Below, piece by piece: positions 2,052 to 50,723 of a stretch of 64,000 bases of DNA (position 1 is the stretch's first letter; each line of letters opens with the position of its first letter). A program made the translations under genes and the position numbers. This DNA is from Myxococcota bacterium (lineage in GTDB: Bacteria > Myxococcota_A > Polyangia > Polyangiales > Houyiibacteriaceae), in contig JBCDAA010000002.1 of assembly GCA_039186435.1 (NCBI GenBank), positions 2,248 to 66,247 on the forward strand, given 5' to 3'. Under the pieces are notes generated by a model that was not told the origin of the DNA, ran no database searches, and saw only the letters and a list, made by a program, of their open reading frames with translations.

Positions 2052-2489
2052 ATGACCCACAGCCAAACGCTCGTCACATCGTTCGCGGTACTTTCGTTTC
2101 CGCTCTTGGGATGCTTCATCGACTCCGAGGAGATCGGCGCATCGCTGCCGTGCATCGCCTGCCATCTCGAGGAGCAGCAGCCACCGATCGTTTTGGGGGA
2201 CGTCGTGATTCCTGTGCAGGCCACGCATCGCATGGATCTCGGCGGCGTCTTCTCCGTGGAGCGGTCCGCTCGCTCCAACGATCACACCCTCGAGGAGAAC
2301 GTGACGATCATCGGCGAGGACGTAGTGGTTCACGCGACGGTCGATGGAGTCGACCTTGGCGACGCGCGCTCGGTCGCAATCGAAAAGGCCGCGCACGAGA
2401 TTCGCTACGCGGCCGAGTTCGACGACGGTGTCACCCTCTCAGGGACGCTGTGCTTTCAGGTGGAGAATCAGCCGGCGTCTTCGCCGTGA
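2052..2489 (+). CDS. small lipoprotein with a single CXXCH motif
   Basis: ATG 2052 gives MTHSQTLVTSFAVLSFPLLGC (lipobox). Contains CIACH. Third-position GC is high. The antisense ORF 1878-2396 looks like a shadow. The 3' end overlaps the convergent His-rich gene by 22 nt. Confidence 0.5.
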   Translation: MTHSQTLVTSFAVLSFPLLGCFIDSEEIGASLPCIACHLEEQQPPIVLGDVVIPVQATHRMDLGGVFSVERSARSNDHTLEENVTIIGEDVVVHATVDGVDLGDARSVAIEKAAHEIRYAAEFDDGVTLSGTLCFQVENQPASSP

Positions 2490-3223
2490 TGGTGTCCTGC
2501 GTCTTCGCCGTGATGGTGTCCTGCGTCTTCGCCATGATGGTGTCCGGCGTCTTCGCCATGATGGTGTCCGGCGTCTTCGCCGTGATGGTGACCGGCGTCT
2601 TCGCCGTGATGGTGTCCTGCGTCTTCGCCGTGATGGTGTCCTGCGTCTTCGCCATGATGGTGTCCGGCGTCTTCGCCGTGATGGTGTCCTGCGTCTTCGC
2701 CGTGATGGTGTCCGGCATCCGGGTCGCCGTGACCCGAGCTCGCGATCAGCGCGACCAGCATGATCTCCCGCGGCGCGTCTTCACCAAAGGTCAGCATGTA
2801 GGTGTCTTCGTCGTGAAGGTGCATGCGGTGATCGGCGTCGAATACGTCCGGACACACGCCGTGCTGAAGCCCGCTCGTCAGGCCAACCACACTGAGGTTT
2901 TCAAGGGCATCGCGATGGCTCGTGAAGAGCGCGATGTCCGAGTGGGGAACCGCAAGCGTGAGCATTGCGTAGGCCGGCCCCGACTCCGGCAGCGTGATGC
3001 GATACATCGTTTCCCCGAAGGCGATCTGCGCCGCACTCGCACCTTCTTCGGTGGCGGACGCGGCGACGTCGACGGGCGCCGAGGACGCAACACTGCAGGA
3101 GGACATCGCCGCGCTGTCGAGCGAGCCAACCGGACGGGAGTCGCCGCTCCCATCCGAGCAGCCGAGACCGAGAAGAATCGCGAAGGAAAGGGCAAGTCGC
3201 ATGAGGCGGACCCTAGCGGCCAT
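2468..3223 (-). CDS. His-rich repeat lipoprotein, C-terminal (HHHGEDAG)x10
   Basis: Signal/lipobox MAARVRLMRLALSFAILLGLGCS (alternative ATG at 3202). The C-terminus is HGDPDAG followed by ten identical HHHGEDAG units, then the stop at 2468. Confidence 0.8.
   Translation of the reverse strand: MAARVRLMRLALSFAILLGLGCSDGSGDSRPVGSLDSAAMSSCSVASSAPVDVAASATEEGASAAQIAFGETMYRITLPESGPAYAMLTLAVPHSDIALFTSHRDALENLSVVGLTSGLQHGVCPDVFDADHRMHLHDEDTYMLTFGEDAPREIMLVALIASSGHGDPDAGHHHGEDAGHHHGEDAGHHHGEDAGHHHGEDAGHHHGEDAGHHHGEDAGHHHGEDAGHHHGEDAGHHHGEDAGHHHGEDAG
2471..2731. repeat. 24-bp tandem repeat x10 (plus one diverged unit) encoding HHHGEDAG
   Basis: Units of cgtcttcgcc(g/a)tgatggtg(t/a)cc(t/g)g read directly. 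All six frames are open across it, which generates several spurious track ORFs. Confidence 0.95.
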
Positions 3224-4535
3224 CGCTTGACGCGCGAAGCGGCAATTCGTCGCGGTCGCGCAGCGGAACAATCCACGCCTTGGGTGCAAAACCATCCGAA
3301 ACGCGACTCAGGTCAACCTCGGGGTCGATCAATTGCTGGCCGGGGCGTCCGTTGAGAGACGCCCACGCGTCCGCGCGAACCTCGACCTCACCACGTCCTT
3401 CTTCATTCCATCGATCTCTCAAGTAGTGCGCGAAACTTAAGATCAGGTCGGGCTGCGTTGGCACCATGCGCAGCTGAAGGGGCGTGAGGAACTCGCGCGG
3501 ATGCACCGTCGTTTCGCCGCGTTCGCTGCGCACGAGAAAATCCACCTGCCCAACCTTCTCCATGAGCATCACGTTCCAGGCGAAGCGATAGCCCTGCTCG
3601 TGCCAGCAGCGGTCGCCCCCGTAGAAGTGCTGCCGCAGCGGAAGCAAAAGCTGAAGGGCGAAGTGCACGCCGAGGAGTGCAAGGGCCGGGCGAGAAAGCG
3701 TGGACGGTTTGACCGCGACCGACGGCGTGGGGATGCGCTTCACGAAGCGTCGTGGCCAGCTCGGATCAAGAAAGAGCGACGCCGCAATCGTCATCAAGAG
3801 CGGAAAGATCCCGATCGGAAAGAGCAGGCCGGTCACGAGGTGGAAAACGATCACTGCAGCGAAGGCGAGGGCGCGCGTTCGTTTCCAGAGAAGCGCGAAG
3901 GGCACAAGCAGATCGAAGAGCATGCCGGCCCAGCTCATCGCAAAGGCGAGCCAAGGTTCATCCATGACCGGCCCGACAATCGGGGCGTCCGAGTAGCGGG
4001 CGAGCCACGTCCCGAGCGGTTCGGCGCGAAGGAGCCAGTCCTCACGAATCTTCGCAGCGCCCGCAAAGACGTAGACGAGCCCAATTTGAAGTCGGAGCAC
4101 ACGGAGCGGCCAGCGGGGGATGGGAGCGGAGCTCTTGCGACGCGCATCGAGCGAGCCGGCGTTGCCGAGGGGCATGAAGAAGAGCAGCGCCGCTAGCACG
4201 CTGACGAGGTAGTAGTGATTGAGATAGTTCGTGCGGTCGATCAGCTCGACGTAGGTAAACGAGACAAAGAAGAGGGCGACGCTGAGGCGATAGCGATAGC
4301 CGGCCGCGATGCCGAGGGCGGAGATCCCAATGACGCCAAAGAGCATGTGCATGCCCACCGGCCCAAGGGGCTGGATGAACTCGAGCCCCGGGTAGGGGAA
4401 CGTGATCGCCGGGGCGATGTAGAGGTCGTGTACCCACCCTTCGAGCTCGTAGCGAAGGACGTTGAACGCCATCGCCAACCCGAAGAGCACCCGAAATGCG
4501 ATGAGCGACGCCGGATCGTGGCGCGGAGCGGTCAC
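3213..4535 (-). CDS. HTTM domain membrane protein (vitamin-K-dependent gamma-carboxylase-like)
   Basis: 440-aa polytopic membrane protein. The N-terminal LIAFRVLFGLAMAFNVLRY...FPYPGLEFI...ELIDRTNYLNHYYLVSVLA layout matches the HTTM domain as I recall it. Confidence 0.75.
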   Translation of the reverse strand: MTAPRHDPASLIAFRVLFGLAMAFNVLRYELEGWVHDLYIAPAITFPYPGLEFIQPLGPVGMHMLFGVIGISALGIAAGYRYRLSVALFFVSFTYVELIDRTNYLNHYYLVSVLAALLFFMPLGNAGSLDARRKSSAPIPRWPLRVLRLQIGLVYVFAGAAKIREDWLLRAEPLGTWLARYSDAPIVGPVMDEPWLAFAMSWAGMLFDLLVPFALLWKRTRALAFAAVIVFHLVTGLLFPIGIFPLLMTIAASLFLDPSWPRRFVKRIPTPSVAVKPSTLSRPALALLGVHFALQLLLPLRQHFYGGDRCWHEQGYRFAWNVMLMEKVGQVDFLVRSERGETTVHPREFLTPLQLRMVPTQPDLILSFAHYLRDRWNEEGRGEVEVRADAWASLNGRPGQQLIDPEVDLSRVSDGFAPKAWIVPLRDRDELPLRASSDGR

Positions 4536-4545
4536 TAGACGTGCT

Positions 4546-5619
4546 CTAGTCGCCGTCGGTCGGATTGAACGTCACCGTCACCGAGAGCGCCCCTGCGACC
4601 TCCGTCGAGAGGAACCGTTGGAGGTCGCGGATTGCGTCGTACGCAGCGTCGACGTCGCCCGGCGCCATGGTGATCGCGTCTCCTAGGGACGTGGGCTCCA
4701 GCGCTTCGAGTCGCGCGATGGCGGTGTCGATCCCCTCGGTCACCTGCGGGTCGAGCTCCGGTCGGCGAGAGAGCAACCAGTCACGAATGCCGACTCCATC
4801 GACGCCGTTGAAGTCGCCGCTGTAGACGTTGCGAACGCCGCGGAGAGCATCGATGGCGTCACCGAGCGAGCGCTCCGAGAAGGGCGCCTCGAGGAGCGTG
4901 AGATCGGGGACTCGATCGTTGCGGCGACCCTGGGGCTTTCCGACCTTGAGCTCGCGCACGTTTTCGATCGTAAAGACCATTTGGTCGAAGACGACGCTCG
5001 CAGCAGCGAAGACACTTCGATAGGGCGTCGTTCCGTTGACAAGGGCTCCGCCGTGGTCGCCGCCTTCGGACGCCCAGGCGTCGACGTATTCCCCGGCTTG
5101 GCGGTGAAGATGCGCGGTCAGAGCGAGGGCATACTCGCAGCGGCGAGGCTCGGCTTGAAGCGCGGCGAGGGGATCGTCCGGGGAAAAGAGTAGGTAGCCG
5201 AGGGCGGGAAAGCCCTTCGCGCCGCTTCCCATTCCGTCGAGGGCTTCCACGCTAAGCGGAGCGCTGTCCGCGAGGACGTCGTCGACAGTGGGCGTTCGCG
5301 CCGGCCAGAAGTCGACGGTGGGCCCAAGGCGCAGCGGGTTGTCCGTGTGCGGTCCAAAGGAAAAGGGCTCGGCTTGCTTGAGCGGCGCCTTGGCGGCGCC
5401 GAATGCGTCCCGAAGTGCTGCGAATCCGGCTTCGTCGGGCGCCGCGCAGAACGCTTCAGTCGTCTGCTGGAGCGCTTCGGTCTGCACCACGAAGTCTTGG
5501 TAGGTGGGAAGGAAGACCGTGTCCGTCATCGACTGGAGCATCGCGGAACGATCGAAATTGTCGGTCGTGCCGCCATCGCTGCAGGAGAGAAGGACGAACG
5601 CTAAAAGCACGCGGTTCAT
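4546..5619 (-). CDS. imelysin-like (M75 / IrpA-like) lipoprotein
   Basis: Internal ATG 5619 gives MNRVLLAFVLLSCSDGG and a 4-nt ATGA overlap with the upstream stop. The LPTYQDFVVQTEAL...AFCAAP...LKQAEPFSFGPH segment resembles imelysin-fold proteins. Confidence 0.7.
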   Translation of the reverse strand: MNRVLLAFVLLSCSDGGTTDNFDRSAMLQSMTDTVFLPTYQDFVVQTEALQQTTEAFCAAPDEAGFAALRDAFGAAKAPLKQAEPFSFGPHTDNPLRLGPTVDFWPARTPTVDDVLADSAPLSVEALDGMGSGAKGFPALGYLLFSPDDPLAALQAEPRRCEYALALTAHLHRQAGEYVDAWASEGGDHGGALVNGTTPYRSVFAAASVVFDQMVFTIENVRELKVGKPQGRRNDRVPDLTLLEAPFSERSLGDAIDALRGVRNVYSGDFNGVDGVGIRDWLLSRRPELDPQVTEGIDTAIARLEALEPTSLGDAITMAPGDVDAAYDAIRDLQRFLSTEVAGALSVTVTFNPTDGD

Positions 5620-6989
5620 AGAGACTCCAAAAAGGCGATCAACCGCGCGCGGTCTGCTTCCGAAAGGGCGCGGAATGCCTCGCGCGCTTCCTCTGCTTCT
5701 CCGCCGTGCCAGAGGATCGCCTCGGCGAAGCCGCGCGCTCGCCCATCGTGGAGGAGGTTCTGATGACCGTTGACCGACTCGAGGTAGCCGAGGCCCCAGA
5801 GCGGCGGCGTTCGCCACTCCTGTCCATCCGCTTCAAACACCGGGCGCGCATCGGCGAGGTCGGGGCCCATGTCGTGCAAAAGCAGATCGGTGTACGGCCA
5901 AATCGATTGATCCGAGAGTTCTGGAAAGCCCTCGAGCGTTCCCGTTTGGTGGTTGGCCACGTGGCAGCCATCACAGCTGAGGCGCCGAAACACCGAGCGT
6001 CCGCGGAGTACCTCCGATTCGAGCGCGCGAGGGCGAAACGGGGGCGCGAGGGTGCGACTGTAGAACGAGACCTTCTCGAGAAGCTCGTCGTCAATTTCTG
6101 GGGCGCCACCGTTTGGGGCAGCCGCGCAGTCGTCTTGGCCGGGCGGGCAGTTCTCAACAGGGTGGAGCGACGACGTGATGCCGAGGTCGCCGAAGAACGC
6201 GCCCGCGGTTTGGTGGCGGACGGTCGGCTGCTCGCTCTTCCAGCCGAAACGACCGATCGCCATGGCGCCAGCCTCCGGATCCCAAACCCGCTGAATCTCT
6301 CCGCTGATCGCGTCGCCGTCCGCGTCATCCGGATCGGCCAGTTCTTCCAGACGGGCCGCCGGGATCGCCTCGAGCAGCCCGAGGCCGATCATGTGCGGCG
6401 CGACGCGTGGCGAAAACTGAATCTCCGATGAAAGGGGGCCGAACGAGAGGTCTTCGAAGACGTACTCCGGTCGCCGCAGCGAATAGGGCGTTCCGTCCTC
6501 GTACGCGCCCGCTTCTTCGGTCCATCGAACAAAGACGCGACCTTCGCCTGGAACTTCACGAACCCCGAAGGGCTGAAACTGGCCGCCATACGCAGGATCC
6601 GGAAGAGGTCCGCCGTGCTCGTCGACCCCCGGAATCGAAAGGCGAATCAACACGCTCGTCAGCGTCGCGTTATCCTCCGGTGGCGTGCCTCGCCCGTCGC
6701 GAAAATGACAGGTCGAACAGGCGGCTCCGTTGAAGGTCGGGCCCAGGCCATCGCGCGCGGTCGTTGTGGACGGGGCGGTGACCCAGGCCTGGCCGAAGAA
6801 GGCGTTGCCCGTAAAAAAAGGCCCACGCCGTTCCGAGCTCAGGTTGGAGGACGGAAAGGTGTAGGCCTGTGACCCGCTCACGAGCAGGAGCAACGTCGTG
6901 TCTCCGCCGGGTCGCTCTTCCCCTGGTTCGAGCTGCGGGTCGGATCCACAGGCAACCAGGAGCGCGAGGCAGGCGGAGACACGGGTCAT
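5616..6989 (-). CDS. di-haem cytochrome c, DUF1111 (thiol-oxidoreductase-like) lipoprotein
   Basis: Lipobox LALLVACGS. Two CXXCH motifs (CSTCH, CDGCH). Size and GLGPTFNGAAC context are typical of DUF1111 proteins that accompany imelysins. Confidence 0.8.
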   Translation of the reverse strand: MTRVSACLALLVACGSDPQLEPGEERPGGDTTLLLLVSGSQAYTFPSSNLSSERRGPFFTGNAFFGQAWVTAPSTTTARDGLGPTFNGAACSTCHFRDGRGTPPEDNATLTSVLIRLSIPGVDEHGGPLPDPAYGGQFQPFGVREVPGEGRVFVRWTEEAGAYEDGTPYSLRRPEYVFEDLSFGPLSSEIQFSPRVAPHMIGLGLLEAIPAARLEELADPDDADGDAISGEIQRVWDPEAGAMAIGRFGWKSEQPTVRHQTAGAFFGDLGITSSLHPVENCPPGQDDCAAAPNGGAPEIDDELLEKVSFYSRTLAPPFRPRALESEVLRGRSVFRRLSCDGCHVANHQTGTLEGFPELSDQSIWPYTDLLLHDMGPDLADARPVFEADGQEWRTPPLWGLGYLESVNGHQNLLHDGRARGFAEAILWHGGEAEEAREAFRALSEADRARLIAFLESL

Positions 6990-6992
6990 GCG

Positions 6993-8160
6993 TTACTCAG
7001 GATTCGGGACGGTGAAGCCGAGCGCAAAGAAAACCTCGCTGAGCAGCATCTCCTGCTCGCGAAGCGAATCGATGAGCGCCTGAACACGCCCATTTCCTTC
7101 GGTGTTGCCCGGGGAGATCTCGAGATCGAAGGGGGGCTGAAGCGCGCGCGCAAGGTCCACGCTGGTCTGAATGCGCGTGCGGAGGTTGTCGGCGAGGGTC
7201 GGATCGAGCTCGCGCACGACGTCTTCGATGCTGGTGCCGCTCACGACCGAGCCGTCGATGCGGGTGTAGCGACCGAGGTAGATGTTCTGGACCCCGATGA
7301 CGTCGAAGAGCATGTCGTTGTGGGTGTTGTCGGAAAAGCAGCTGTGCTCCTCTTCCTGGTTGCCCGCGTCGAGGGCCGCCTGAAGACGCTCGCCGGCGGT
7401 CTCGAAGCCGCTGAGAACGATCATTCCCGTGAGAATGCGCTGGAGCGCGACGTCCTCGTCGACGGTCTCCATGTCCTGGCGGTAGTTCGACTGACCGGGC
7501 GCCCACGCGTCGACGAGATCCGAGAGGTTGCTCTCGAGAAGGTCGCCGGCGGTCGTAAGGTACTGCCCACGGCGGTCGGCGTTGTCGGCCGTTGAGAAGT
7601 CCTCGAAGGTGCGCTGGCCGGGCATCCGCATGCTCGGCTCGGTGAGGTCCTGGCCCCAGAGCAGGAACTCGATCGGATGCCAGCCGGCCGCCACGTCCGC
7701 GTCGCCGCCTTCGCCGTTGGCGCCGCTGATCGAATCGGCGGAAATCGTAAATCCGGTGTCGTTGACCCGGCCTGCGGTCGCATCGCCATCCACGTAGTCG
7801 ACGGTCTGCTCGTCCATGGGCCAGGCGTTGATGAGTCCTTCCGGGTCTCCGTCCATGCCGTCGATGGGGCCGTCGTAGAACCGGTACACCTCGGTCTGGA
7901 GGTAAGGCTCGCGGGCTTCAAGCCACACGTCCTTTGCCGCCTGCAGCGTATCTGCAGATGCGCCGTCGACGAGCGCCTGAAGTGCGGTGTTCATCCGCTG
8001 GATCTCCGTGAGGGAGTCCTGGTAGCTCGCGTGCACGATTTCGTTGTAGGTCTGAATCGCTGCCGCGGTCGTATCTGAGGATCCATCGCCGTCGTCGCCG
8101 CAGCTAAACGCCAGCAGGCTGAGACCCAAAGCCATCGTTCGCCTTGTCATTGTACTCTCC
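6993..8160 (-). CDS. imelysin family (M75, EfeO/IrpA-like) lipoprotein
   Basis: ATG 8160, preceded by AGGAGA, gives MTRRTMALGLSLLAFSCGDDG. The longer 8579 start adds an Arg-rich non-signal extension. There is a 3-nt gap to the next gene. Confidence 0.7.
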
Positions 8161-8164
8161 TGAA

Positions 8165-8189
8165 GAAATTGAAAATTGTTTTCAATTTC
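8165..8189. promoter_or_regulatory. perfect palindrome GAAATTGAAAA-TTG-TTTTCAATTTC, Fur-family (7-1-7-like) operator candidate
   Basis: 11-nt arms are exact reverse complements. The inner TGAAAAT-T-GTTTTCA resembles TGATAAT-N-ATTATCA. Lies 5 nt upstream of the imelysin operon start/SD. Confidence 0.6.
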
Positions 8190-8271: not shown

Positions 8272-8299
8272 TGAAAATCAATTTCATTAATGAGGTCAT
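8272..8299. promoter_or_regulatory. Fur-like box pair (TGAAAATCAATTTCA plus AATGAGGTCAT)
   Basis: 12/15 match to TGATAATCATTATCA by my count. Followed by an AATGA-N3-TCAT core that overlaps the ATG of the small ORF. Confidence 0.55.
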
Positions 8300-8528
8300 G
8301 CCCAAGCGACACTCGTTGGCCCGCAATTCTTTCTGCCGAATCGATCAGCTCTGCGGCTGTGGTCGAGTCATCGAGGTTTCCGTGGGGGCCTTCTCTTTGC
8401 GCTTCGACGCCGGGTCGCTGCGAAAGCTCGGCAACACGATCAACGAGGCGCTGAGCAAGCTCGAACGTGAGTCTGAAGAAGCGGCGTTGCTCCTCGACGT
8501 GAAGCCAGCGCCACGAGGGCAGGCATGA
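8298..8528 (+). CDS. candidate small protein (76 aa), unknown function
   Basis: The ATG overlaps the end of a Fur-like site. Third-position GC is coding-like. Sequence is MPKRHSLARNSFCRIDQLCGCG...VSVGAFSLRFDAGSLRKLGNTINEAL. No family recognised. Confidence 0.35.
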   Translation: MPKRHSLARNSFCRIDQLCGCGRVIEVSVGAFSLRFDAGSLRKLGNTINEALSKLERESEEAALLLDVKPAPRGQA

Positions 8529-8680: not shown

Positions 8681-10810
8681 ATGAGAGCCAACGACCGAAG
8701 CGCGCAACCGGTTGCGCGGCATAGAGCAGTTCTCGCGTTCACCCTGTGGGCGTCTGCGGCTCCGTTCACTTCGGCGCAGGATACGGAAGCGGAAGACGAG
8801 TTCACCCTTGATGAGCCGGGGGAACTCACTCTCGACGACGCTGGGGATATCCAGCTTGAGGGCGACCTTTCGGAGGACATGGATGACCTCATGCTCCGCA
8901 CGGTTGTCGTTACGGGGACGCGACGCGAGCAACCTCTTGAAGACCTTCCCGTCGCGGTTGAGGTCATCACTCAAGAAGAGATCGATCGCTCGGGCGCGGA
9001 GACCCTCGCGGAGCTCCTTGAAGAACGTGCCGGGCTTCAGACCTTCAACGCGTTTCGAGGGCAGGGCGTTCAGCTTCGCGGCCTAGAGCCGGAGCACACC
9101 CTGATTCTTGTTGATGGTGAGCGCACGATTGGCCGCATTGACGGCACCTTGGATCTCACCCGGTGGCAGCTCGAAGATGTCGAGCGGGTTGAGATTGCCC
9201 GTGGCTCGGCGTCCGCGCTTTGGGGAAGCGACGCGCTCGCAGGGGTCATCAACATCATTCCGCGCCGCGGTCAGGAGGGCTGGACCGCGTCGGCAAGAGC
9301 CACGTACGGCTACCAAGATCGGCGTCGAAGCAACCGGCGCTCGAACTTTGAGGGCGGACCGCGTATCGACGACGGAGAGGACCTCCCCGACGACAGCTAC
9401 GGCGGAACCTACGACCTTGTGGGACGCCTCGGGTACGGCACCCAGCGCGCTGGCGGAACGGTTTTCCTTGGCTACCACCGCCTCGACGGCTTTGACCTCG
9501 ACCCGCGCGATGGAGCCACGAACGCGCCGGATACCGAAACGATCACCGCCGGTCTTTCGGGGTGGGCGAAGTTCGGGCCCACAACGCTCCGACTTCGATC
9601 TGAGATCCTCCATCGCGACGACGTTATTTTTGAAGCGCGTGGGCCACGGCTGATCCGCGAGCGTCTCAACCGAACCGACACCGCGAACGTCAGTCTCACC
9701 CCGGTCATCGACTTCGACCGCGGACAGCTCACGATGCGGGTGGCGTACTCCCGTTTCCGCGATCAGTTTCTCCGGCGGATTGTCGGCGAAGAGCAGATCG
9801 ACCCCACGACGATCACCACCGAGCAGCTGGGTCAGCTTCAAGGGCGGTACGTGCACTCGTTTAACGACGCGCACGTTTTCACCATTGGCTACGACACCTC
9901 CCTTGAGACGCTTCGAACGCCTCGCCTTCAGCGCACCGGAACGCGCGCCCGCCTCGCGCCCTATGTTCAGCATGAATGGACTGTGTCGGAGGAGCCCTAC
10001 GTGGCCGTGGTTCCCGGCATTCGTCTCGACGCGGACAGCTGGTTCGGTACGGCCGTCTCGCCAAAGGTCGCGGTACGGGTCGACCCCCACGAGAAGCTCG
10101 TCTTGCGCGCGTCGGGCGGACGAGGCTTTCGTGCACCGGACTTCCGGGAACTTCTGCTTCAGTTCACCGACAACGAGAGCCTCGGCTACATCGTGTTTGG
10201 GAACCCAGACCTAGAGCCCGAGACCAGCTGGAGCGTGGATGGCGGTGCCGAGCTGCGTCTTGGCCGCGCTTGGCTCGGCGTGACCGGGTACGCGACCTAC
10301 GTCGACGACCTCATCACGGTAGACCTCTTCGAGGTGGACGGCGCGGTTTCCCGCTTTGGCTACGTGAATGTCGGAAGCGCACGGACTCGCGGCCTTGAGG
10401 CTCAGGCTCGCTTCGCTCCCCTCCGCGGCGGGGATCATCGTTTTCGCATCGACGCCTCGTACACCTTTCTCGATGCGGACGACCGCACCAACAACCGACC
10501 CCTTCCCGGTCGCGCGCGGCACGCGGGAACGCTTCACCTTCGCTATCAACATCAGCCCTCTGGCATCAGCGCCCTCTGGCGGTCGCGACTCTCGGGCGAG
10601 CGCATCTTCTTCGATGGCGACGAGCGGATTGAGGCGGAGCCCTTTCTCTCGCTGGATCTGCGCCTAGAAAAGAACTTTGCCGGTGACCGGTTCCGTATCT
10701 TCGTCGGCGTCGACAACGTACTCAACAACGGCGGCACGTTTCTCACGACCCGCCCGCGAACATTTTGGTTCGGCGTCGCCGCCCGGCGCCGAGCGGAGGA
10801 ACAAGAATAA
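8681..10810 (+). CDS. TonB-dependent outer-membrane receptor
   Basis: Signal peptide ending AAPFTSAQ, an acidic linker, a plug domain (VVVTGTRREQPLEDLPVAVEVITQEEIDRSGAETLAELL), and a ~550-aa barrel region. Confidence 0.9.
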   Translation: MRANDRSAQPVARHRAVLAFTLWASAAPFTSAQDTEAEDEFTLDEPGELTLDDAGDIQLEGDLSEDMDDLMLRTVVVTGTRREQPLEDLPVAVEVITQEEIDRSGAETLAELLEERAGLQTFNAFRGQGVQLRGLEPEHTLILVDGERTIGRIDGTLDLTRWQLEDVERVEIARGSASALWGSDALAGVINIIPRRGQEGWTASARATYGYQDRRRSNRRSNFEGGPRIDDGEDLPDDSYGGTYDLVGRLGYGTQRAGGTVFLGYHRLDGFDLDPRDGATNAPDTETITAGLSGWAKFGPTTLRLRSEILHRDDVIFEARGPRLIRERLNRTDTANVSLTPVIDFDRGQLTMRVAYSRFRDQFLRRIVGEEQIDPTTITTEQLGQLQGRYVHSFNDAHVFTIGYDTSLETLRTPRLQRTGTRARLAPYVQHEWTVSEEPYVAVVPGIRLDADSWFGTAVSPKVAVRVDPHEKLVLRASGGRGFRAPDFRELLLQFTDNESLGYIVFGNPDLEPETSWSVDGGAELRLGRAWLGVTGYATYVDDLITVDLFEVDGAVSRFGYVNVGSARTRGLEAQARFAPLRGGDHRFRIDASYTFLDADDRTNNRPLPGRARHAGTLHLRYQHQPSGISALWRSRLSGERIFFDGDERIEAEPFLSLDLRLEKNFAGDRFRIFVGVDNVLNNGGTFLTTRPRTFWFGVAARRRAEEQE

Positions 10811-12420
10811 TGCGTCGTTCTCTTTTCTTTTCCCTAGCGCTTCTTCTCGCTTGCGATGATCTCGGCAGCAGCCCGGTCGATTCGGGTGCCGATCCTGACG
10901 CCGGCACGGACGACGCCGGCGAGGTCGATGCCGGTGCGAGCGAACCGGTGCAGCACACCGACATCGGCAACGGCGTTACCGAGACCCTCGTCGACGGGAC
11001 CGACACGCGGCGTTGGCTGGCTCTCGATCTCGACAACGGCGGCGCTGTTCTCGATGTGAGCATCACCGAGGACACCGCGTGGGATCTTGCGATTCAGCGC
11101 TTCGCGTATCGCACGAACGGCGGCGCGGGAGGTCCCGGCAACGTGCGGGTCGCGTTCCGGGACGACGTGACCTTCGAGGCGGCGACCCAGGCTCCCGAGG
11201 TGGGCTGGACGCAGGATCAGCCCGCTGAGGATTCGATGATCCCGGACGATGTTCCGATGGGCGAAGAGGTCCCCACCACGGTCATCTCCCACGGTGAAGA
11301 TCCGTGGTTCAACTACAACCCGATGACGCACGTGCTGACGCCGAAGGAGCGTGTCTACTTCATCGAAACGAGTGACCGAGCCTACGTTGCGCTTCAGCCG
11401 GTCGACTACTACTCGCCGGAGACGGGGGACTCGGGGTATCCCGCGTTCCGCTGGAAGATGGTCGACGCGCCGGACGGCGTGCTGCCGGGCTTTGATGTCG
11501 ATGCCTCCTCGCGTGACACCTGGGTCTACCTGAACCTCAGTGGGGAGGTCGTCACCGTCGAGAACGAGGCGACTGACCCGTGGGATCTTGCGATCCAGCG
11601 CACGGCGATTCGCACGAACGGTGGTGTGAGCGGCCCGGGGGTTGGCGGTGCTCGCGAGGCGACCGAGACCTGGGAAGTCCTCACGGAGACCACAACCGTG
11701 GGCTTTGTCGAAGACTCCCTTCTTCCGCTTCCCGGCCCTCCAGGATCTGGCGAGGCGCCCGGAAACTCCGCGCTGGCGACCTGGTTCGACTACGAGGAGT
11801 CCACGCGAACCGTTTCGGCGCGAGCGAACGCGGCGTTCGTTGTACGAGGTGCCGCGGGCGGCTACAGCAAGCTTCGCGTCCTCGCCTGGGACGACGGCGT
11901 GTACCGTCTCGAGATCGAGCCGATTGCGCGCGTGGTCGACACCCGCAGCGCAAGTATCGACGCATCGTCGACCGACGTGTGGGCGTACTTCAGCTTCCGG
12001 CAGGGCGAGCTCGTCGAGGTTTCGAGCGCGTCGGATGACCCGTCCTGGGACATCGGCTTTCAACGCACCGCGATCACGACGAACGGTGGAACGAGCGGCG
12101 AAGGGGAAGGTGCGTCCTACGAGGCGAGCGCCGCGTTTGATGAGATCGATGCAGTGGACGGAGAGTTTCTCGTCGACGAAGACCTGCCTCTGCCCGGACC
12201 GCCGGGGAGCGGAACGTTCTCCGGAAACCCCGCCCTCAACACCTGGTTCGACTACAACGAAAGCACCCGCGAAGTGAGCGTGCGCGACACGGCCTTTGTG
12301 GTCCGCACGGCGGATGGCGGTTTCGTCAAGCTCCAGGTAGAAGCCTGGGACGACGGTAACTACACGCTTCGCTGGGCCTACGCGGGCGCGGGCGGAGCTC
12401 GCTTCGGAGACGACGAATGA
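10810..12420 (+). CDS. lipoprotein with three tandem HmuY-like domains
   Basis: The ATG overlaps the receptor stop (TAATG). Lipobox LALLLACDD. Three repeats each carry WD(L/I)(A/G)(I/F)QR-x4-TNGG-x-(G/S)G-x-G and a later ...KL(R/Q)V(L/E)AWDDG... strand, the pattern I associate with the HmuY family. Confidence 0.65.
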   Translation: MRRSLFFSLALLLACDDLGSSPVDSGADPDAGTDDAGEVDAGASEPVQHTDIGNGVTETLVDGTDTRRWLALDLDNGGAVLDVSITEDTAWDLAIQRFAYRTNGGAGGPGNVRVAFRDDVTFEAATQAPEVGWTQDQPAEDSMIPDDVPMGEEVPTTVISHGEDPWFNYNPMTHVLTPKERVYFIETSDRAYVALQPVDYYSPETGDSGYPAFRWKMVDAPDGVLPGFDVDASSRDTWVYLNLSGEVVTVENEATDPWDLAIQRTAIRTNGGVSGPGVGGAREATETWEVLTETTTVGFVEDSLLPLPGPPGSGEAPGNSALATWFDYEESTRTVSARANAAFVVRGAAGGYSKLRVLAWDDGVYRLEIEPIARVVDTRSASIDASSTDVWAYFSFRQGELVEVSSASDDPSWDIGFQRTAITTNGGTSGEGEGASYEASAAFDEIDAVDGEFLVDEDLPLPGPPGSGTFSGNPALNTWFDYNESTREVSVRDTAFVVRTADGGFVKLQVEAWDDGNYTLRWAYAGAGGARFGDDE

Positions 12421-14429
12421 ATCGTACCCTTGCCCTTTGCGTACTCCTCGGTTGTGGCGGATCGCCTTCGCCATCGGCCTCGACGCCGACGACGACCGAG
12501 CCCTCGGTGACGGTAGAAGACACCCCTGCAGAAGAAACGGCACAGATGATCGCTGCGGCGGATGTCGTGGTTGATGGCGGCTTGCCGCTACTCCCTCGTG
12601 GGCTGACCAGCTTTGGCCTCGCCGAGCACGAGGGCGCGCTCTACCTCCTTGGAGGCTTCTTTGGTGAGCCCCATCGCTACGTCGCAGAGGACCAGTCGGC
12701 GGCGCTGTACGTCCTGCGTCCCGGGATGCGCGAATGGGAAGAGGGACCCGGTCTCGATCGAGGGATGCAGAGCGTTGCTCTCGTCAACGTGCAAAACGCG
12801 CTTCACCGCATTGGCGGTATGCAGGTTCGTGACGGTGGGCTTCACTCGGTTGCGGAGCACGCGCGCCTCGACCCCGCGGCCGGTCGATGGACGACTCTTC
12901 CTGCGCTTCCGGAGCCGCGTTCGTCCCACGACGCCATTGCTCACGGCGACTCGCTTTGGGTGGTGGGTGGATGGCGCCTGTCCGGTGCGCCGCGCGAAGG
13001 AACGTTCGCAGAGACAGCGCTCCGCTTTGATGGCGAGACCTGGCATGCGACGCCGGCTCCCCTTCGGCGTCGAGCCCTTGGACTCGCGGCCACCGAGAAT
13101 CATCTCGTTGCGGTCGGCGGGCTCGCCGCAGAAGGCGTCTCTCAGCAGGTCGACATTCTCGACGTGAGCACGGGCGAGTGGTCTCGCGGCCCCGATCTGC
13201 CCGGAAACCGCACGGGTTTTGGCATCGCGGTGGTGGGCGTCGGCGACTCGGTGTACGCGAGCGGCTTCGACGGTGTTCTTCGTCGACTACGCGTCGGTGC
13301 GGACGCCTGGGAAGACGTCGGAACCATCGCCTTTCCGCGGTTCTTTCACCGCATGGTTCACGTCGATGGAGGCTTCGCGGTCGTGGGCGGGATCGGAGGA
13401 ATGCACACTTCCGGCCGAACCCGCGTGGTGGAGACCGTCCCCGATTCCGGCGGAGGCGCGCTGACGATCGCGGTGCCTTGGGACGCGGAAGCGAAGAACC
13501 GTCAGGGAACCTTCCTCGCCGGCGATCACCTCTACTTCTTCGGCGGCAACAACAGCCTCGGGCAGCATGACTTCGAGGTGGAGAACTTCGTGCGCGAAGG
13601 ATGGCGGCTCCACGTGCCCTCGCTCTCCTTCGAGCAGGTCGCGGATTATCCGGCGGCGCGCCAGACGATGACGACTCTTGTCGTCCCCTCCGAAGACCCG
13701 CGGGAAGAGCCGACGGTGATCTCGCTGGCGGGCTTCGGTCACGAGGGTCCGACGGCCGGGGAAGAGACCGTCGCGAAAACGCACCCGGAAATCTTTCGCT
13801 ACAGCGTGTCGGAGAACGCCTGGAGTCCGATGCCTTCGCTTCCGGTTTCGCGCAGTCAGCTCGGCGCGTTCTTTCACAACGGTGACCTCGTCGTGATGGG
13901 CGGCCTCGACTACGACCCGACCCGTCCGGAAAACGACCAGTTCCGCCATCTCACGGAGATCGTGTCGCTTACCGCGAACGGGACGGAGTTCCAGACGCTT
14001 GAGCAGGCCCTTCCCGGGCCGCGACGTGCCTTTGGCGGCGCCTACCTCAACGGGCGCTACTACCTGATCGGCGGCATGCGCGAAGGGTTTCAGCTCGTGG
14101 ATGGCTGCGTTGCCTTCGATCCCGCCGAGTCATCGTTCGACGAGGTCGCCTGTCCTCAGCGCACCCGTCTGAACCCGCGCCTCGTGGCGGTCGGCGAGCA
14201 ACTCGTCCTCGTGGGTGGTACCACGCGGCTCGAAAACGGTGAGCTTGGGGAGGACCGCAGCATCGAGGTGTACAACCCCGCGACCAATCGCTGGCGAGCT
14301 CTCGAGACGGAGCTTCCGTTCACGCCCAAGCATGCGCAGGCTTTCGACTATCACGGTGGTCTGCTCGTGGTTTCGACTCACAACGACGAGCGGCGTCTGC
14401 GACTCGCGTTCATTCCGGTGGCCGAGTGA
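12417..14429 (+). CDS. Kelch-repeat (probably double beta-propeller) lipoprotein
   Basis: ATGA overlap with the upstream gene. Lipobox LCVLLGCGG. About twelve blade signatures, including LYLLGGF, LHRIGGM, LWVVGGW, LVAVGGL, FAVVGGI, LYFFGGN, LVVMGGL, YYLIGGM and LVLVGGT. Confidence 0.75.
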   Translation: MNRTLALCVLLGCGGSPSPSASTPTTTEPSVTVEDTPAEETAQMIAAADVVVDGGLPLLPRGLTSFGLAEHEGALYLLGGFFGEPHRYVAEDQSAALYVLRPGMREWEEGPGLDRGMQSVALVNVQNALHRIGGMQVRDGGLHSVAEHARLDPAAGRWTTLPALPEPRSSHDAIAHGDSLWVVGGWRLSGAPREGTFAETALRFDGETWHATPAPLRRRALGLAATENHLVAVGGLAAEGVSQQVDILDVSTGEWSRGPDLPGNRTGFGIAVVGVGDSVYASGFDGVLRRLRVGADAWEDVGTIAFPRFFHRMVHVDGGFAVVGGIGGMHTSGRTRVVETVPDSGGGALTIAVPWDAEAKNRQGTFLAGDHLYFFGGNNSLGQHDFEVENFVREGWRLHVPSLSFEQVADYPAARQTMTTLVVPSEDPREEPTVISLAGFGHEGPTAGEETVAKTHPEIFRYSVSENAWSPMPSLPVSRSQLGAFFHNGDLVVMGGLDYDPTRPENDQFRHLTEIVSLTANGTEFQTLEQALPGPRRAFGGAYLNGRYYLIGGMREGFQLVDGCVAFDPAESSFDEVACPQRTRLNPRLVAVGEQLVLVGGTTRLENGELGEDRSIEVYNPATNRWRALETELPFTPKHAQAFDYHGGLLVVSTHNDERRLRLAFIPVAE

Positions 14430-19806: not shown

Positions 19807-21450
19807 CTATTCGGCAGGAAACACGCGGAGGGGCGTGCTGTACGCGAAGCGATCCTCGGCGTCCTCCAGCCCAAGCGATCCGCGGAAGCTCCAGCCCCAT
19901 CCGAAGAGGTCGCCGGTGGCGCTCAACGCAAGGGCCGGTCCGCCGGCTCCGACTTCGATCTCAACGATGTCGAAGGCGTCTCGATCCTCCTCGTCGACAG
20001 CGACCTCCGACGCGATGAGGCGGTTTTCAAGATCTCGCTCTCCGTCGGGGAGAAGTCCTTGGCCAAGCTGGCCGAGAGTTCCGAGGCCCCAAAGAAAGAC
20101 CCGACCCTCCGTCGTGAGGGCCATACCCACAAAGCCGTCCCCCGCGATGTTCTCGATGTTCGCCAGTGGGACCCGTTCTCCCGAAGCGTCTTCGACCCGC
20201 ACGGCGGTTGGCATGAGGATGTCGTCGCCAGAGTCGTCGCCGACCCCCGCTTGCCCCGATCGGTTCTGGCCCCACGCGAGAACAGTGCCGTCTTGGAGGA
20301 GCGCGTAGGTCGTACGGTTGGCCGCTGCGATCGCGGCGACGTCCAGAATCTCGAGACGCGTGGGCGTAGGGTGTGGATCCCGATCGGAAGTGCCGAGACC
20401 GAGCTGTCCCGCGTTGTTTTCGCCCCACGCCCAGATGCGCCCCTCGTTGTCTAGCGCAAACGACGCGTTCGTCCCGGCCGCGATCTGAATCACGTTGGTG
20501 AGTCCCTCGACGGCTGCGGGTCCGATTTCGGTCGTCGACTCGCGCCCGAGTTGTCCATCGTCGTTGGCGCCCCAGGACCAGACGGAACCGTCGTCGCGGA
20601 GGACGAGCGCGTGATCGAAACCGGCCTGAATCGCGATCGCGTTGCTGACGCCGGGGACCTCGGTCGGAGTGCGTCGGCACGGGCTCGTCCCGCGGGAGCC
20701 GCAGTCCTCTTCGGCCGCGTAGCCGAGCTGACCTTCGTCGTTGCTGCCCCAGGTCTCGACGGTACCCGTATCGGTTAGTGCGATCATGAACGTTTGACGA
20801 GTGACCACCGAGACCAGGTTGGGCGCATCTCGCACGTAGCGAAGCGGAAGCGTCGACTCCGGGGGCTCCTCGCCAAATCCCGATCCCTCGAGTGTTCCGT
20901 TTCCGAGCTGCCCGAGCTCGTTGCGACCCCAGGTGAAGAGCTCGCCGTCTCGAAGAAAGGCGGACTGGGAGTTACCGACGCTGATGCGGTGACCGAAGTA
21001 CACGGCCACCGAAGCCATCGTTTCGTTTCCAGCTTCGTCGAGGGCGACGACGATGACGTCGTTCGAACCAGGCGTGAGGGGAGCGGTGACCTCGAAGCTG
21101 CCGTCGTCGGCGACATCGATCGCTGCTGTGGTGTCTCCAGCGACGAGCGTGACGCTCGCAAGCCCCATGTCATCGGTGGCGGTTCCGGTCACCCGCACTC
21201 GCCGGACGGGTGTCATTCGGCCGGAGCGGGGGGATGAGAGTGAGACCGTCGGCGGCGTCGTATCCGGCGGCATCGCGTCGAAGCCAGCGTCGAAGCCGCC
21301 GTCAAAGCCGCTGTCAAAGCCGCTGTCGAATCCACTGTCGAATCCGCCGTCGACGGGCGAGGCATCGATGCCGCTGTCGAGTCCAGCTGTGCCGTCGTCG
21401 TCGCCGCACCCGCACAAGAATGTCACGAGAATCACTAGGTATTTGTTCAT
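19807..21450 (-). CDS. RCC1-repeat (7-blade) lipoprotein
   Basis: Lipobox VTFLCGCGDDDG, a (DSGF)n linker, then seven WG-x-N/G-x-x-GQLG blade motifs. Confidence 0.85.
   Translation of the reverse strand: MNKYLVILVTFLCGCGDDDGTAGLDSGIDASPVDGGFDSGFDSGFDSGFDGGFDAGFDAMPPDTTPPTVSLSSPRSGRMTPVRRVRVTGTATDDMGLASVTLVAGDTTAAIDVADDGSFEVTAPLTPGSNDVIVVALDEAGNETMASVAVYFGHRISVGNSQSAFLRDGELFTWGRNELGQLGNGTLEGSGFGEEPPESTLPLRYVRDAPNLVSVVTRQTFMIALTDTGTVETWGSNDEGQLGYAAEEDCGSRGTSPCRRTPTEVPGVSNAIAIQAGFDHALVLRDDGSVWSWGANDDGQLGRESTTEIGPAAVEGLTNVIQIAAGTNASFALDNEGRIWAWGENNAGQLGLGTSDRDPHPTPTRLEILDVAAIAAANRTTYALLQDGTVLAWGQNRSGQAGVGDDSGDDILMPTAVRVEDASGERVPLANIENIAGDGFVGMALTTEGRVFLWGLGTLGQLGQGLLPDGERDLENRLIASEVAVDEEDRDAFDIVEIEVGAGGPALALSATGDLFGWGWSFRGSLGLEDAEDRFAYSTPLRVFPAE
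21277..21348. repeat. 12-bp tandem repeat x6 encoding (DSGF/DGGF)n
   Basis: gtc(g/a)aa(g/t)cc(a/g)c(c/t) units read directly. Confidence 0.8.
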
Positions 21451-21463
21451 CGCCGGAGATGTT

Positions 21464-21482
21464 GAAATTGACTTTCACTATC
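21464..21482. promoter_or_regulatory. Fur-like box GAAATTGACTTTCACTATC
   Basis: 13/19 to the consensus. Lies in the divergent gap between the RCC1 lipoprotein and the methyltransferase operon. Confidence 0.55.
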
Positions 21483-21587
21483 TTCTAGCGAAGGTGTGCG
21501 GTGTGTCACGTCAAGGGGTTTTCTTCTGTAGATGAAAATGACATTCAATATCGAAGTCGCCAAGCCGTGGTGGCTGAAGGACAACCG

Positions 21588-31765: not shown

Positions 31766-31874
31766 CCGGGCCACCTCCTTGCAATGGGTCCTGGATCACG
31801 CTCTTGGGCCAGGCGGCAAGAAATGAAAAGCGCTCACGATTTCAAATGCTTGCAAACCACTATGGGCGTGTGTA

Positions 31875-31893
31875 GATAATGACTTTCAATTTC
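31875..31893. promoter_or_regulatory. Fur-like box GATAATGACTTTCAATTTC
   Basis: 14/19 to the consensus. Lies 16 nt upstream of the DUF4397 lipoprotein ATG. Confidence 0.65.
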
Positions 31894-43136: not shown

Positions 43137-43155
43137 CGATAAGGATTTTCATATT
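43137..43155. promoter_or_regulatory. Fur-like box GATAAGGATTTTCATATTC
   Basis: 14/19 to the consensus. Lies ~20 nt upstream of the two-CxxC protein gene. Confidence 0.6.
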
Positions 43156-46800: not shown

Positions 46801-46803
46801 GCC

Positions 46804-46822
46804 GATAGTGATTTTCAAGTTC
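46804..46822. promoter_or_regulatory. Fur-like box GATAGTGATTTTCAAGTTC
   Basis: 13/19 to the consensus. Lies 32 nt upstream of the small-membrane/PepSY gene pair. Confidence 0.5.
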
Positions 46823-50692: not shown

Positions 50693-50723
50693 CGATATTG
50701 AATGTCATTTTCATTAATTGAAA
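50693..50723. promoter_or_regulatory. Fur-like box GATATTGAATGTCATTTTC overlapping TTTCA-TTAAT-TGAAA
   Basis: 14/19 to the consensus, plus an adjoining short palindrome. Starts 5 nt upstream of the ATG at 50688. Confidence 0.6.

What the first reader, a model, noticed from the sequence alone, without database searches (positions are those of the whole stretch)
2468..8189. Imelysin / di-haem DUF1111 / imelysin operon extended by an HTTM (gamma-carboxylase-like) protein and a His/Glu-repeat lipoprotein
Seen: five tightly packed minus-strand genes lie behind a perfect 25-bp palindrome. Inter-gene spacing is a 3-nt gap, an ATGA overlap, a 10-nt gap, then a short overlap or gap.

The products in order are imelysin, a DUF1111 protein with CSTCH and CDGCH, an imelysin-like protein, a 440-aa HTTM membrane protein, and a lipoprotein ending in (HHHGEDAG)x10.

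Established knowledge:
- Imelysin-fold proteins (as in EfeO) and DUF1111 di-haem proteins co-occur in iron-uptake loci.
- HTTM is the bacterial homolog of the membrane catalytic domain of vitamin-K-dependent gamma-glutamyl carboxylase. Its bacterial substrates are unknown.

Inference (speculative): the last gene supplies ten identical Glu-Asp sites plus thirty His on a flexible tail, immediately downstream of the HTTM gene. It is therefore a candidate substrate or partner. The tail could be Glu-modified, or it could act as a periplasmic or surface metal sponge handing metal to the imelysin/haem module.
Basis: partly seen in the sequence, partly recalled or inferred. Interest (0 to 1): 0.7.

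Follow-up and report, generated by a model that had tools for sequence, protein, structure and literature searches.

The report
Iron-uptake operon with carboxylase-like membrane enzyme
This is an iron-uptake gene cluster whose vitamin-K-carboxylase-like membrane enzyme is almost always paired with an imelysin-like protein in other bacteria, whereas the histidine-rich lipoprotein behind it is a local add-on and probably a metal binder, not the enzyme's substrate.

Summary
Five tightly packed minus-strand genes (imelysin, di-haem DHOR/DUF1111, imelysin-like, HTTM, lipoprotein with 10 x HHHGEDAG) lie behind an inverted repeat of 11-nt perfect arms around a 3-nt centre.

The inverted repeat contains a Fur-type 7-1-7 box. 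A second box lies 100 nt away, and a TonB receptor/HmuY operon diverges from the same region.

The idea that the His/Glu tail is the HTTM substrate fails its own test:
- None of 80 HTTM loci from other genomes has a homologue of the lipoprotein or any His-rich ORF within 10 kb.
- None of 12 genomic contexts of the lipoprotein's family contains an HTTM gene.
- That family usually carries His/Asp/Gly tails. Glu makes up 4% of them and is absent from 8 of 19.

The conserved HTTM partner is the IPPA-type imelysin-like gene, directly upstream in 78 of 79 evaluable loci. The catalytic Lys218 equivalent is invariant in all 81 sequences, while the coupling Lys217 is Ala in 80 of 81.

The lipoprotein is most likely an accessory metal-binding protein. 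A conserved, Fur-box-associated imelysin/HTTM module appears to be undescribed in the searched literature, and it is the more interesting result.

The parts
8165..8189 (.). Inverted repeat with 11-nt perfect arms and a 3-nt centre. Its core at 8170-8184 (TGAAAATTGTTTTCA) is a Fur-type 7-1-7 box, ending 15 nt upstream of the imelysin ATG just before the RBS.
   Evidence: It has 1 mismatch to TGAAAATNATTTTCA and 3 mismatches to the E. coli Fur 7-1-7 consensus. There are 9 matches in the window against 0.47 expected.
8272..8286 (.). Second Fur-type 7-1-7 box (TGAAAATCAATTTCA). It lies 12 nt upstream of a possible small plus-strand gene and faces the TonB receptor operon.
6993..8150 (-). Gene 1: ICMP/LruB-type imelysin lipoprotein with a GxHxxE motif (GWHPIE).
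   Evidence: Pfam PF09375 at 4e-69. NCBIfam imelysin LruB at 1.9e-42, below the equivalog cut-off.
5616..6989 (-). Gene 2: di-haem oxidoreductase (DHOR/DUF1111) lipoprotein with CSTCH and CDGCH.
   Evidence: Pfam PF06537 at 1.8e-88; sequence.
4546..5619 (-). Gene 3: IPPA-type imelysin-like lipoprotein. The motif His is lost (GFPALG) and the C-terminus is FNPTDGD.
   Evidence: Pfam PF09375 at 2.6e-45. It shares the C-terminal motif with PDB 3pf0 IPPA. A homologue lies directly upstream of HTTM in 78 of 79 evaluable loci.
3213..4535 (-). Gene 4: HTTM membrane protein homologous to residues 59-512 of human vitamin-K-dependent gamma-carboxylase. The catalytic Lys is conserved as K162.
   Evidence: Pfam PF05090 at 2.8e-78 and PF22777 at 2.9e-45. 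PDB GGCX match at E about 4e-40. Residue conservation in 81 sequences.
2468..3202 (-). Gene 5: lipoprotein with a beta-sandwich domain (conserved Cys pair, RxHxH motif) and a C-terminal (HHHGEDAG)x10 tail.
   Evidence: AlphaFold2 pLDDT 87.6.
2471..2710 (-). Tandem repeat of ten 24-nt units that encodes the His/Glu/Asp tail. All differences between units are synonymous.
8681..10810 (+). Divergent TonB-dependent receptor gene.
   Evidence: Pfam Plug and TonB_dep_Rec_b-barrel.
10810..12420 (+). Lipoprotein with three HmuY domains. Its start overlaps the TonB receptor stop.
   Evidence: Pfam PF14064 at 1.4e-48 in 3 stretches; ORFs.
12417..14429 (+). Kelch-repeat lipoprotein with an ATGA overlap to the HmuY gene. 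A homologue lies next to the imelysin operon in locus L018.
   Evidence: Pfam Kelch families. tblastn gives 43% identity over 634 aa in L018.

Best explanation
The region is a metal-regulated (Fur-type box), TonB-dependent iron or haem acquisition locus of a Myxococcota bacterium.

Its minus-strand operon is the known Fur-regulated imelysin / di-haem DUF1111 / IPPA-type imelysin-like module, extended by an HTTM membrane protein. The HTTM gene is not a local oddity. An IPPA-type imelysin-like gene followed directly by HTTM is a conserved pair across Myxococcota, Bacteroidota and other phyla. It is embedded either in this four-gene module or in a DUF4856 / imelysin-like / HTTM / TonB-receptor module.

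Inferred: HTTM is the inner-membrane enzymatic partner of the periplasmic imelysin-like lipoprotein. It most likely uses reduced menaquinone and O2 as GGCX does, because the catalytic base is retained. It lacks the residue and the domain that couple human GGCX to propeptide-bearing Glu substrates.

The fifth gene belongs to a separate, unnamed family of lipoproteins. These have a beta-sandwich domain, a conserved Cys pair and an RxHxH(E/D) motif, and usually a His/Asp/Gly-rich tail. Elsewhere the family sits alone or in copper-handling loci next to di-haem peroxidase genes. In this operon it is most likely a lineage-specific accessory that binds or buffers metal in the periplasm, not an HTTM substrate.
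For: Shown:
- Domain assignments.
- Fur-type boxes are enriched 9 against 0.47 expected in the window. Similar boxes recur just upstream of the homologous modules in high-GC genomes where chance matches are rare: L018, L033, L067, L062, L034, L005, L010, L077.
- The PA4370-PA4373 operon is Fur-regulated (PMC3143127).
- An imelysin-like gene lies directly upstream of HTTM in 78 of 79 evaluable loci.
- The two module types are established.
- K162 (=K218), H107 (=H160) and N106 (=N159) are invariant in 81 of 81 sequences.
- The lipoprotein family has 39 relatives. 20 of 32 aligned members have His-rich tails.
- The domain model is a confident beta-sandwich.
- All DNA differences between repeat units are synonymous, which indicates selection on the peptide.
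- Family contexts are copper or di-haem loci, or stand-alone genes.
Against: - No experiment bears on this locus.
- The metal specificity of the boxes (Fur, Zur or Nur) and of the tail is unknown.
- The family's other contexts point to copper rather than iron, so the gene could be a functionally unrelated passenger.
- The HTTM chemistry is inferred only from conserved residues. A Glu-pocket subset (N159, H160, mostly Y395) is retained, so a carboxylase activity on some acidic substrate is not excluded.
- The 10-nt spacing to HTTM is compatible with a functional link in this one organism.
- No close relative of this MAG was available to test whether the arrangement is stable.
Confidence: 0.6

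Rival explanations
1. One reading: the (HHHGEDAG)x10 tail is a substrate of the adjacent HTTM enzyme. Its Glu (or Asp) residues are carboxylated to create a Gla/His metal-binding tail.
For: - The gene is co-directional and only 10 nt downstream of HTTM.
- Every repeat contains Glu-Asp.
- HTTM keeps the catalytic Lys and part of the GGCX Glu pocket: N159, H160 and mostly Y395.
- A bacterial homologue, MloH, carboxylates an aspartyl group.
Against: - 0 of 80 HTTM loci have a homologue of the lipoprotein or any His-rich ORF within 10 kb.
- 0 of 12 contexts of the lipoprotein family contain HTTM.
- Family tails are 4% Glu and 8 of 19 have none.
- K217, needed for substrate coupling, is Ala in 80 of 81 sequences. 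The part of GGCX that carries W501-, G558- and T591-type propeptide-binding residues is absent, because the homology ends at human residue 512.
- No propeptide-like element was identified.
Confidence: 0.07
2. The lipoprotein gene is a passenger. It is a copper, nickel or zinc homeostasis protein that landed at the end of the operon and has no functional tie to the imelysin/HTTM machinery beyond co-transcription.
For: - Relatives sit in copper loci with multicopper oxidases, Cus-type RND pumps, CopZ, MerR, MopE and MbnP, or stand alone.
- The gene is absent from all 80 homologous HTTM modules.
Against: - The 10-nt spacing implies co-expression with an iron-regulated operon.
- GC3 of the domain (0.77) matches its neighbours, so there is no sign of recent foreign origin.
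- In 6 of 12 contexts the family member lies beside a di-haem peroxidase gene, and a di-haem enzyme (DHOR) is present in this operon too. However, DHOR and CCP_MauG show no significant sequence similarity.
Confidence: 0.25
3. The HTTM protein is not an enzyme here. It serves instead as the inner-membrane permease or anchor of the system, the missing EfeU-like component.
For: - The imelysin 'outer-membrane cluster' operons lack an EfeU permease (PMC3143127).
- HTTM is the only integral membrane protein in the operon.
Against: The catalytic K218 equivalent and the H160 and N159 equivalents are invariant in 81 of 81 sequences. That is the pattern expected for retained chemistry rather than a scaffold.
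Confidence: 0.1

Closest known systems
[quoted passage not shown]
   Same: The order is the same: ICMP-type imelysin with GxHxxE, then a DUF1111 di-haem protein, then an IPPA-type imelysin-like protein without the motif His. All are lipoproteins or periplasmic proteins, and a Fur-type operator lies upstream.
   Different: Here the operon continues into an HTTM gene and a His-rich lipoprotein gene. The paper's text contains no mention of 'carboxylase' or 'TonB'.
Riemerella anatipestifer cluster RAYM_09779-09794 (TonB receptor, 'vitamin K-dependent gamma-carboxylase', imelysin, hypothetical protein), PMC5609570
   Same: It has the same imelysin-like/HTTM pair. [quoted passage not shown] It corresponds to the DUF4856 / imelysin-like / HTTM / TonB-receptor module seen in most Bacteroidota loci.
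   Different: It has no DHOR and no second imelysin, the TonB receptor is in the same operon, and there is no His-rich lipoprotein. The paper only lists the genes in a table.
[quoted passage not shown]
   Same: The protein is homologous over GGCX residues 59-512 (E about 4e-40). K218, H160, N159 and Y395 equivalents are present. As in the Leptospira homologue, K217 is not conserved.
   Different: It is 440 aa against 758 aa and lacks the C-terminal part of the propeptide-binding domain. W157, N158, L394 and R436 are replaced. No substrate is known. It sits in a metal-uptake operon rather than a protein-maturation or natural-product pathway.
EfeUOB ferrous iron transporter
   Same: It includes an imelysin-fold (M75) periplasmic component acting with a periplasmic haem peroxidase-like protein in iron uptake (PMC3143127).
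   Different: There is no EfeU/Ftr1 permease and no cupredoxin domain. The haem protein is a DHOR c-type di-haem protein. The membrane protein is HTTM.
MbnP/MbnH-type pairs (copper-binding protein plus MauG-like di-haem enzyme)
   Same: Relatives of the lipoprotein lie directly beside CCP_MauG genes in 6 of 12 contexts, once together with an MbnP gene, in copper loci.
   Different: The lipoprotein has no Pfam MbnP match. DHOR is not detectably similar to CCP_MauG. The resemblance is by context only.

Membership tests
Imelysin / DUF1111 / imelysin-like iron-uptake operon (PA4370-72 type) | ICMP-type imelysin with a GxHxxE motif | tested here: met
   PF09375 at 4.4e-69. The motif is present as GWHPIE.
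Imelysin / DUF1111 / imelysin-like iron-uptake operon (PA4370-72 type) | DUF1111/DHOR protein with two CxxCH haem motifs between the two imelysin genes | tested here: met
   PF06537 at 1.8e-88. CSTCH and CDGCH are present.
Imelysin / DUF1111 / imelysin-like iron-uptake operon (PA4370-72 type) | IPPA-type imelysin-like protein lacking the motif His | tested here: met
   PF09375 at 2.6e-45. The motif is GFPALG. The C-terminal FNPTDGD matches FNSTDGD of IPPA, PDB 3pf0.
Imelysin / DUF1111 / imelysin-like iron-uptake operon (PA4370-72 type) | Regulation by Fur or iron | tested here: inconclusive
   Two Fur-type 7-1-7 boxes are present, with 9 matches against 0.47 expected in the window, and similar boxes recur upstream of homologous modules. 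There are no expression or binding data for this organism.
[quoted passage not shown] | HTTM transmembrane catalytic domain plus lumenal domain homology | tested here: met
   PF05090 at 2.8e-78 and PF22777 at 2.9e-45. PDB GGCX match at E about 4e-40 over human residues 59-512.
[quoted passage not shown] | Catalytic base Lys218 | tested here: met
   K162 aligns with K218 and is invariant in 81 of 81 sequences.
[quoted passage not shown] | Complete Glu pocket (N158, N159, H160, Y395, R436; L394) | tested here: inconclusive
   N159 and H160 are invariant. Y395 is Y in 60 of 81 sequences. N158 is Leu, L394 is Gly, and R436 is Met, Gln or Glu.
[quoted passage not shown] | Lys217 coupling residue | tested here: not met
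   It is Ala in 80 of 81 sequences. Its role is taken from bioRxiv 10.1101/2025.02.09.637231.
[quoted passage not shown] | Full propeptide-binding domain (region including W501, G558, T591) | tested here: not met
   The protein is 440 aa and the homology ends at human residue 512 of 758.
[quoted passage not shown] | Carboxylation of Glu in a propeptide-bearing protein substrate | not testable with these tools
   This needs biochemistry or mass spectrometry.
Unnamed His-tail beta-sandwich lipoprotein family (P0002-P0039) | Lipobox Cys, two further invariant Cys, and an RxHxH(E) motif | tested here: met
   C15, C36 and C117 are invariant and H130 is nearly invariant in 32 sequences. The window protein has R-M-H-L-H-D.
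Unnamed His-tail beta-sandwich lipoprotein family (P0002-P0039) | His/acid/Gly-rich C-terminal tail | tested here: met
   20 of 32 members have such a tail. The window tail is the longest and most regular of the 32 aligned members.
MbnP copper-binding protein | Sequence match to the MbnP family | tested here: not met
   There is no Pfam hit at E <= 0.01. Foldseek against PDB gives only weak generic beta-sandwich matches with E >= 1e-3.

The most novel reading that the evidence does not exclude
The imelysin-linked HTTM proteins are menaquinone- and O2-dependent modifying enzymes of bacterial metal uptake. They carboxylate or otherwise activate acidic residues on a periplasmic lipoprotein partner, namely the IPPA-type imelysin with its invariant C-terminal DxDGD end. 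In this MAG they may also act on the appended Glu-Asp/His tail. This would give bacterial vitamin-K-carboxylase homologues their first protein substrates.
Probability: 0.2. Interest if true: 0.85.

Novelty: new variant of a known kind. Interest (0 to 1): 0.5.

Why it matters
Bacterial relatives of the vitamin-K-dependent carboxylase are widespread, but almost nothing is known about what they do. Here the subfamily closest to this gene is tied to one specific partner (an IPPA-type imelysin-like lipoprotein), to Fur-type operators and to TonB-dependent receptors in at least two phyla, and it keeps the catalytic lysine.

That turns a vague question into a testable one. One can delete or mutate K162 in a tractable flavobacterium or myxobacterium and look for iron-uptake defects, menaquinone epoxide and modified imelysin.

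The work also defines an unannotated family of His-tailed lipoproteins linked to copper and di-haem loci. It removes a tempting but unsupported substrate assignment.

Tried and rejected
- A k-mer-based homologue search with the lipoprotein domain found only the protein itself. The exhaustive HMMER search was needed to find the family.
- The search for related loci on metagenomes with family alignments A2 and A4 failed because no stretch was conserved enough. Family contexts therefore rest on 12 look-ups.
- Foldseek of the domain model against PDB gave only weak generic beta-sandwich hits, such as a collagen-binding domain and the enterotoxin C-terminal domain, with TM <= 0.6. Cupredoxin or metallochaperone membership is not claimed.
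- PDB sequence search of the whole lipoprotein matched only low-complexity repeats.
- DHOR against CCP_MauG showed no significant similarity. DHOR has no solved relative by sequence. The 'di-haem partner' parallel is therefore by context only.
- The conserved C-terminal DxDGD of the imelysin-like protein was considered as an HTTM-specific mark. It is also present in IPPA (PDB 3pf0), so it is a family trait.
- High-His ORFs near HTTM genes in high-GC loci were all Arg-rich wrong-frame artefacts.
- The terminator and promoter scans gave nothing above chance.
- Literature searches for imelysin+HTTM and for DUF4856 gave no papers, and the 30 papers listed for HTTM alone included none on iron uptake.

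Full report
**Observation**

The window is from a Myxococcota MAG; the lipoprotein is NCBI locus AAGE52_00305. ORF listing and Pfam confirm five co-directional minus-strand genes:
- Imelysin, 6993-8150 (PF09375, 4e-69).
- Di-haem DHOR/DUF1111, 5616-6989 (PF06537, 2e-88, with CSTCH and CDGCH).
- A second imelysin-fold gene, 4546-5619 (PF09375, 3e-45).
- A 440-aa HTTM protein, 3213-4535 (PF05090, 3e-78), which also matches the GGCX lumenal domain (PF22777, 3e-45).
- A 244-aa lipoprotein, 2468-3202, with no Pfam or NCBIfam family.

The junctions are a 3-nt gap, an ATGA overlap, a 10-nt gap and another 10-nt gap. The last becomes an 11-nt overlap with the alternative start.

The tail is ten 24-nt units that encode identical HHHGEDAG peptides. 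All nucleotide differences between units are synonymous, which argues for a translated, selected peptide.

The 'perfect 25-bp palindrome' is really 11-nt perfect arms around a 3-nt centre at 8165-8189.

**Regulation and setting**

The palindrome core TGAAAATTGTTTTCA is a 7-1-7 inverted repeat three mismatches from the E. coli Fur consensus. A second copy, TGAAAATCAATTTCA, lies at 8272-8286. Such boxes occur 9 times in the window against 0.47 expected from shuffles.

On the other strand, a TonB-dependent receptor, a triple-HmuY lipoprotein and a Kelch lipoprotein form a translationally coupled operon.

Similar boxes sit just upstream of the homologous modules in high-GC genomes, where chance matches are rare. 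Examples are L018, L033, L067, L062, L034, L005 and L077, and L010 has a box one mismatch from the Fur consensus.

The literature agrees:
- PA4370-PA4373 and VC1264-66 are Fur-regulated imelysin / DUF1111 / imelysin-like operons (PMC3143127).

Iron regulation of this particular locus remains an inference.

**The HTTM gene**

A scan of one genome per species found at least 540 relatives. The best 80 (42-50% identity) were fetched with 10-kb flanks.

An imelysin-like gene of the gene-3 type lies immediately upstream of HTTM in 76 loci by tblastn. It is also there in L011 (Pfam) and L038 (partly masked). L068 is cut at the contig end, and L051 is the one exception. That gives 78 of 79 evaluable loci.

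Two architectures recur:
- Imelysin / DHOR / imelysin-like / HTTM, as in the window, Archangium, Cystobacter, Nannocystaceae, Sulfidibacter and others.
- DUF4856 / imelysin-like / HTTM / TonB receptor, in most Bacteroidota and some Sandaracinaceae.

Gene 3 is of the IPPA type. It lacks the motif His (GFPALG) and ends in FNPTDGD, as IPPA (PDB 3pf0) ends in FNSTDGD. This C-terminal DxDGD is conserved in at least 70 of 73 HTTM-linked sequences.

**Catalytic residues**

The protein aligns with human GGCX residues 59-512 (E about 4e-40). Residue roles come from the GGCX cryo-EM preprint. Across the 81 sequences:
- The catalytic base K218 is invariant (K162), and H160 and N159 are also invariant.
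- Y395 is Tyr in 60 of 81.
- K217, the coupling residue also missing in the Leptospira homologue, is Ala in 80 of 81.
- N158, L394 and R436 are replaced.
- The C-terminal roughly 250 residues that complete the propeptide-binding domain are absent.

I infer a retained quinol/O2 chemistry with a different mode of substrate engagement. The strictly adjacent imelysin-like lipoprotein is the most likely partner. This step is inference only.

**The lipoprotein**

An exhaustive HMMER search with the 164-residue N-terminal part found 39 proteins, 14 of them at E <= 1e-10. The family has a lipobox Cys, two further invariant Cys and a nearly invariant His in an RxHxH(E) motif.

It splits into two groups:
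- A His-tail group, to which the window protein belongs.
- A 'PDWMT...AFHEWGAY' group with acidic N-terminal linkers and no tail.

Of 32 aligned members, 20 have His-rich tails. Excluding the window protein, these tails are 25% His, 22% Asp, 24% Gly and only 4% Glu, and 8 of 19 have no Glu at all.

AlphaFold2 with a 28-sequence alignment gives a confident beta-sandwich (pLDDT 87.6, pTM 0.80). It has no close solved relative.

Seen from the HTTM side:
- No locus among the 80 has a tblastn match to the lipoprotein domain.
- The gene downstream of HTTM is a TonB receptor in most Bacteroidota and is variable in Myxococcota.
- No genuine His-rich ORF exists within 10 kb of any of the 80 HTTM genes.

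Seen from the lipoprotein side, twelve family members were located on contigs:
- Five of the tail-less group are each followed directly by a CCP_MauG di-haem peroxidase gene. Four of the five are preceded by a TSP3/AhpC-like gene. Four lie near multicopper oxidase genes, RND efflux pumps (three of them Cus-type) or other copper-handling genes.
- One His-tail member lies next to MbnP plus CCP_MauG and an RND pump.
- The other six are stand-alone, near MgtC, or on contigs too short to judge.
- None of the 15 loci contains HTTM, imelysin, DHOR, a TonB receptor or HmuY at E <= 1e-3.

**Conclusion and limits**

The best-supported reading has two parts. First, this is a Fur-box-associated iron or haem uptake locus whose conserved, apparently undescribed extension is the imelysin-like/HTTM pair. 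Second, it carries a lineage-specific, co-transcribed His-tailed lipoprotein that binds or buffers metal.

The tail-as-substrate idea survives only as a low-probability possibility for this single organism.

Open points:
- The metal specificity of the lipoprotein; family contexts suggest copper.
- The real chemistry of HTTM.
- Whether the boxes are bound by Fur.

In the searchable open-access library no paper holds both 'imelysin' and 'HTTM', none mentions DUF4856, and the 30 papers listed for 'HTTM' alone include none on iron uptake. Subscription literature was not covered.

Noticed in passing
window 8298-8528 (+): A possible 76-aa gene (MPKRHSLARNSFCRIDQLCGCGR...) lies in the 'intergenic' region. 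It has a GAGG RBS and the second Fur-type box 12 nt upstream of its ATG. GC3 is 0.73. It has no Pfam or NCBIfam hit and no homologue in the fetched loci.
   Followed up: partly
window 2052-2489 (+): A convergent 145-aa putative lipoprotein (signal peptide ending LLGC) contains a CIACH (CxxCH) haem-type motif. GC3 is 0.79. Its 3' end overlaps the last repeat unit of the His-tail gene by 22 nt. It has no family hit.
   Followed up: partly
window 21463-21477, 21533-21547, 31874-31888, 43137-43151, 46803-46817, 50699-50713, 52670-52684: Further Fur-type 7-1-7 boxes. A pair lies upstream of an RCC1-repeat lipoprotein gene (19807-21450), with a PepSY_TM gene (22823-24400) about 1.3 kb further on. 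One lies at the start of a DUF4397 lipoprotein gene that follows a TonB-dependent receptor gene (29267-31765). One lies near the Ni-SOD gene. Together they suggest a metal regulon spread over the window.
   Followed up: partly
window 52076-52549 (-) and 51124-51723 (-): A nickel superoxide dismutase gene (PF09055, 2e-48) and a weak, below-threshold match to the nickel-transport family NicO (PF03824, 2e-5, 24.5 bits against a 27.7-bit cut-off) lie close together.
   Followed up: no
window 29267-31765 (+): A TonB-dependent receptor carries an N-terminal TonB_C domain (PF03544, residues 40-104) ahead of the Plug domain, which looks like an unusual fusion.
   Followed up: no
window 12417-14429 (+); L018 587-2434: A Kelch-repeat lipoprotein is translationally coupled to the HmuY gene. 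It has a 43%-identical homologue directly upstream of the Fur-type box and imelysin operon in a Nannocystaceae locus, so it may belong to the system.
   Followed up: partly
L081-L084, L088 and L090 (about 9200-11850); L087 3861-5563: In the tail-less branch of the lipoprotein family, the beta-sandwich lipoprotein (conserved PDWMT and AFHEWGAY motifs) is followed directly by a CCP_MauG di-haem peroxidase gene in 5 of 5 contexts. In 4 of the 5 (not L087) a TSP3/AhpC-like gene precedes it. Most of these loci also carry copper-handling or RND efflux genes. The arrangement is reminiscent of MbnP/MbnH and appears uncharacterised.
   Followed up: partly
window 4549-4569 (C-terminus of the imelysin-like gene); 73 loci: The extreme C-terminus DxDGD (FNPTDGD here) is conserved in at least 70 of 73 HTTM-linked imelysin-like proteins. 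It is also present in PDB 3pf0 (IPPA). Its function is unknown.
   Followed up: partly
L008 7547, L027 7485, L044 7529, L052 7556, L072 7418 and others: A recurrent palindromic box TTAAAATWATTTTAA lies about 100 nt upstream of the DUF4856 gene in Pontibacter-type modules. It resembles the Riemerella Fur box reported in PMC5609570.
   Followed up: no
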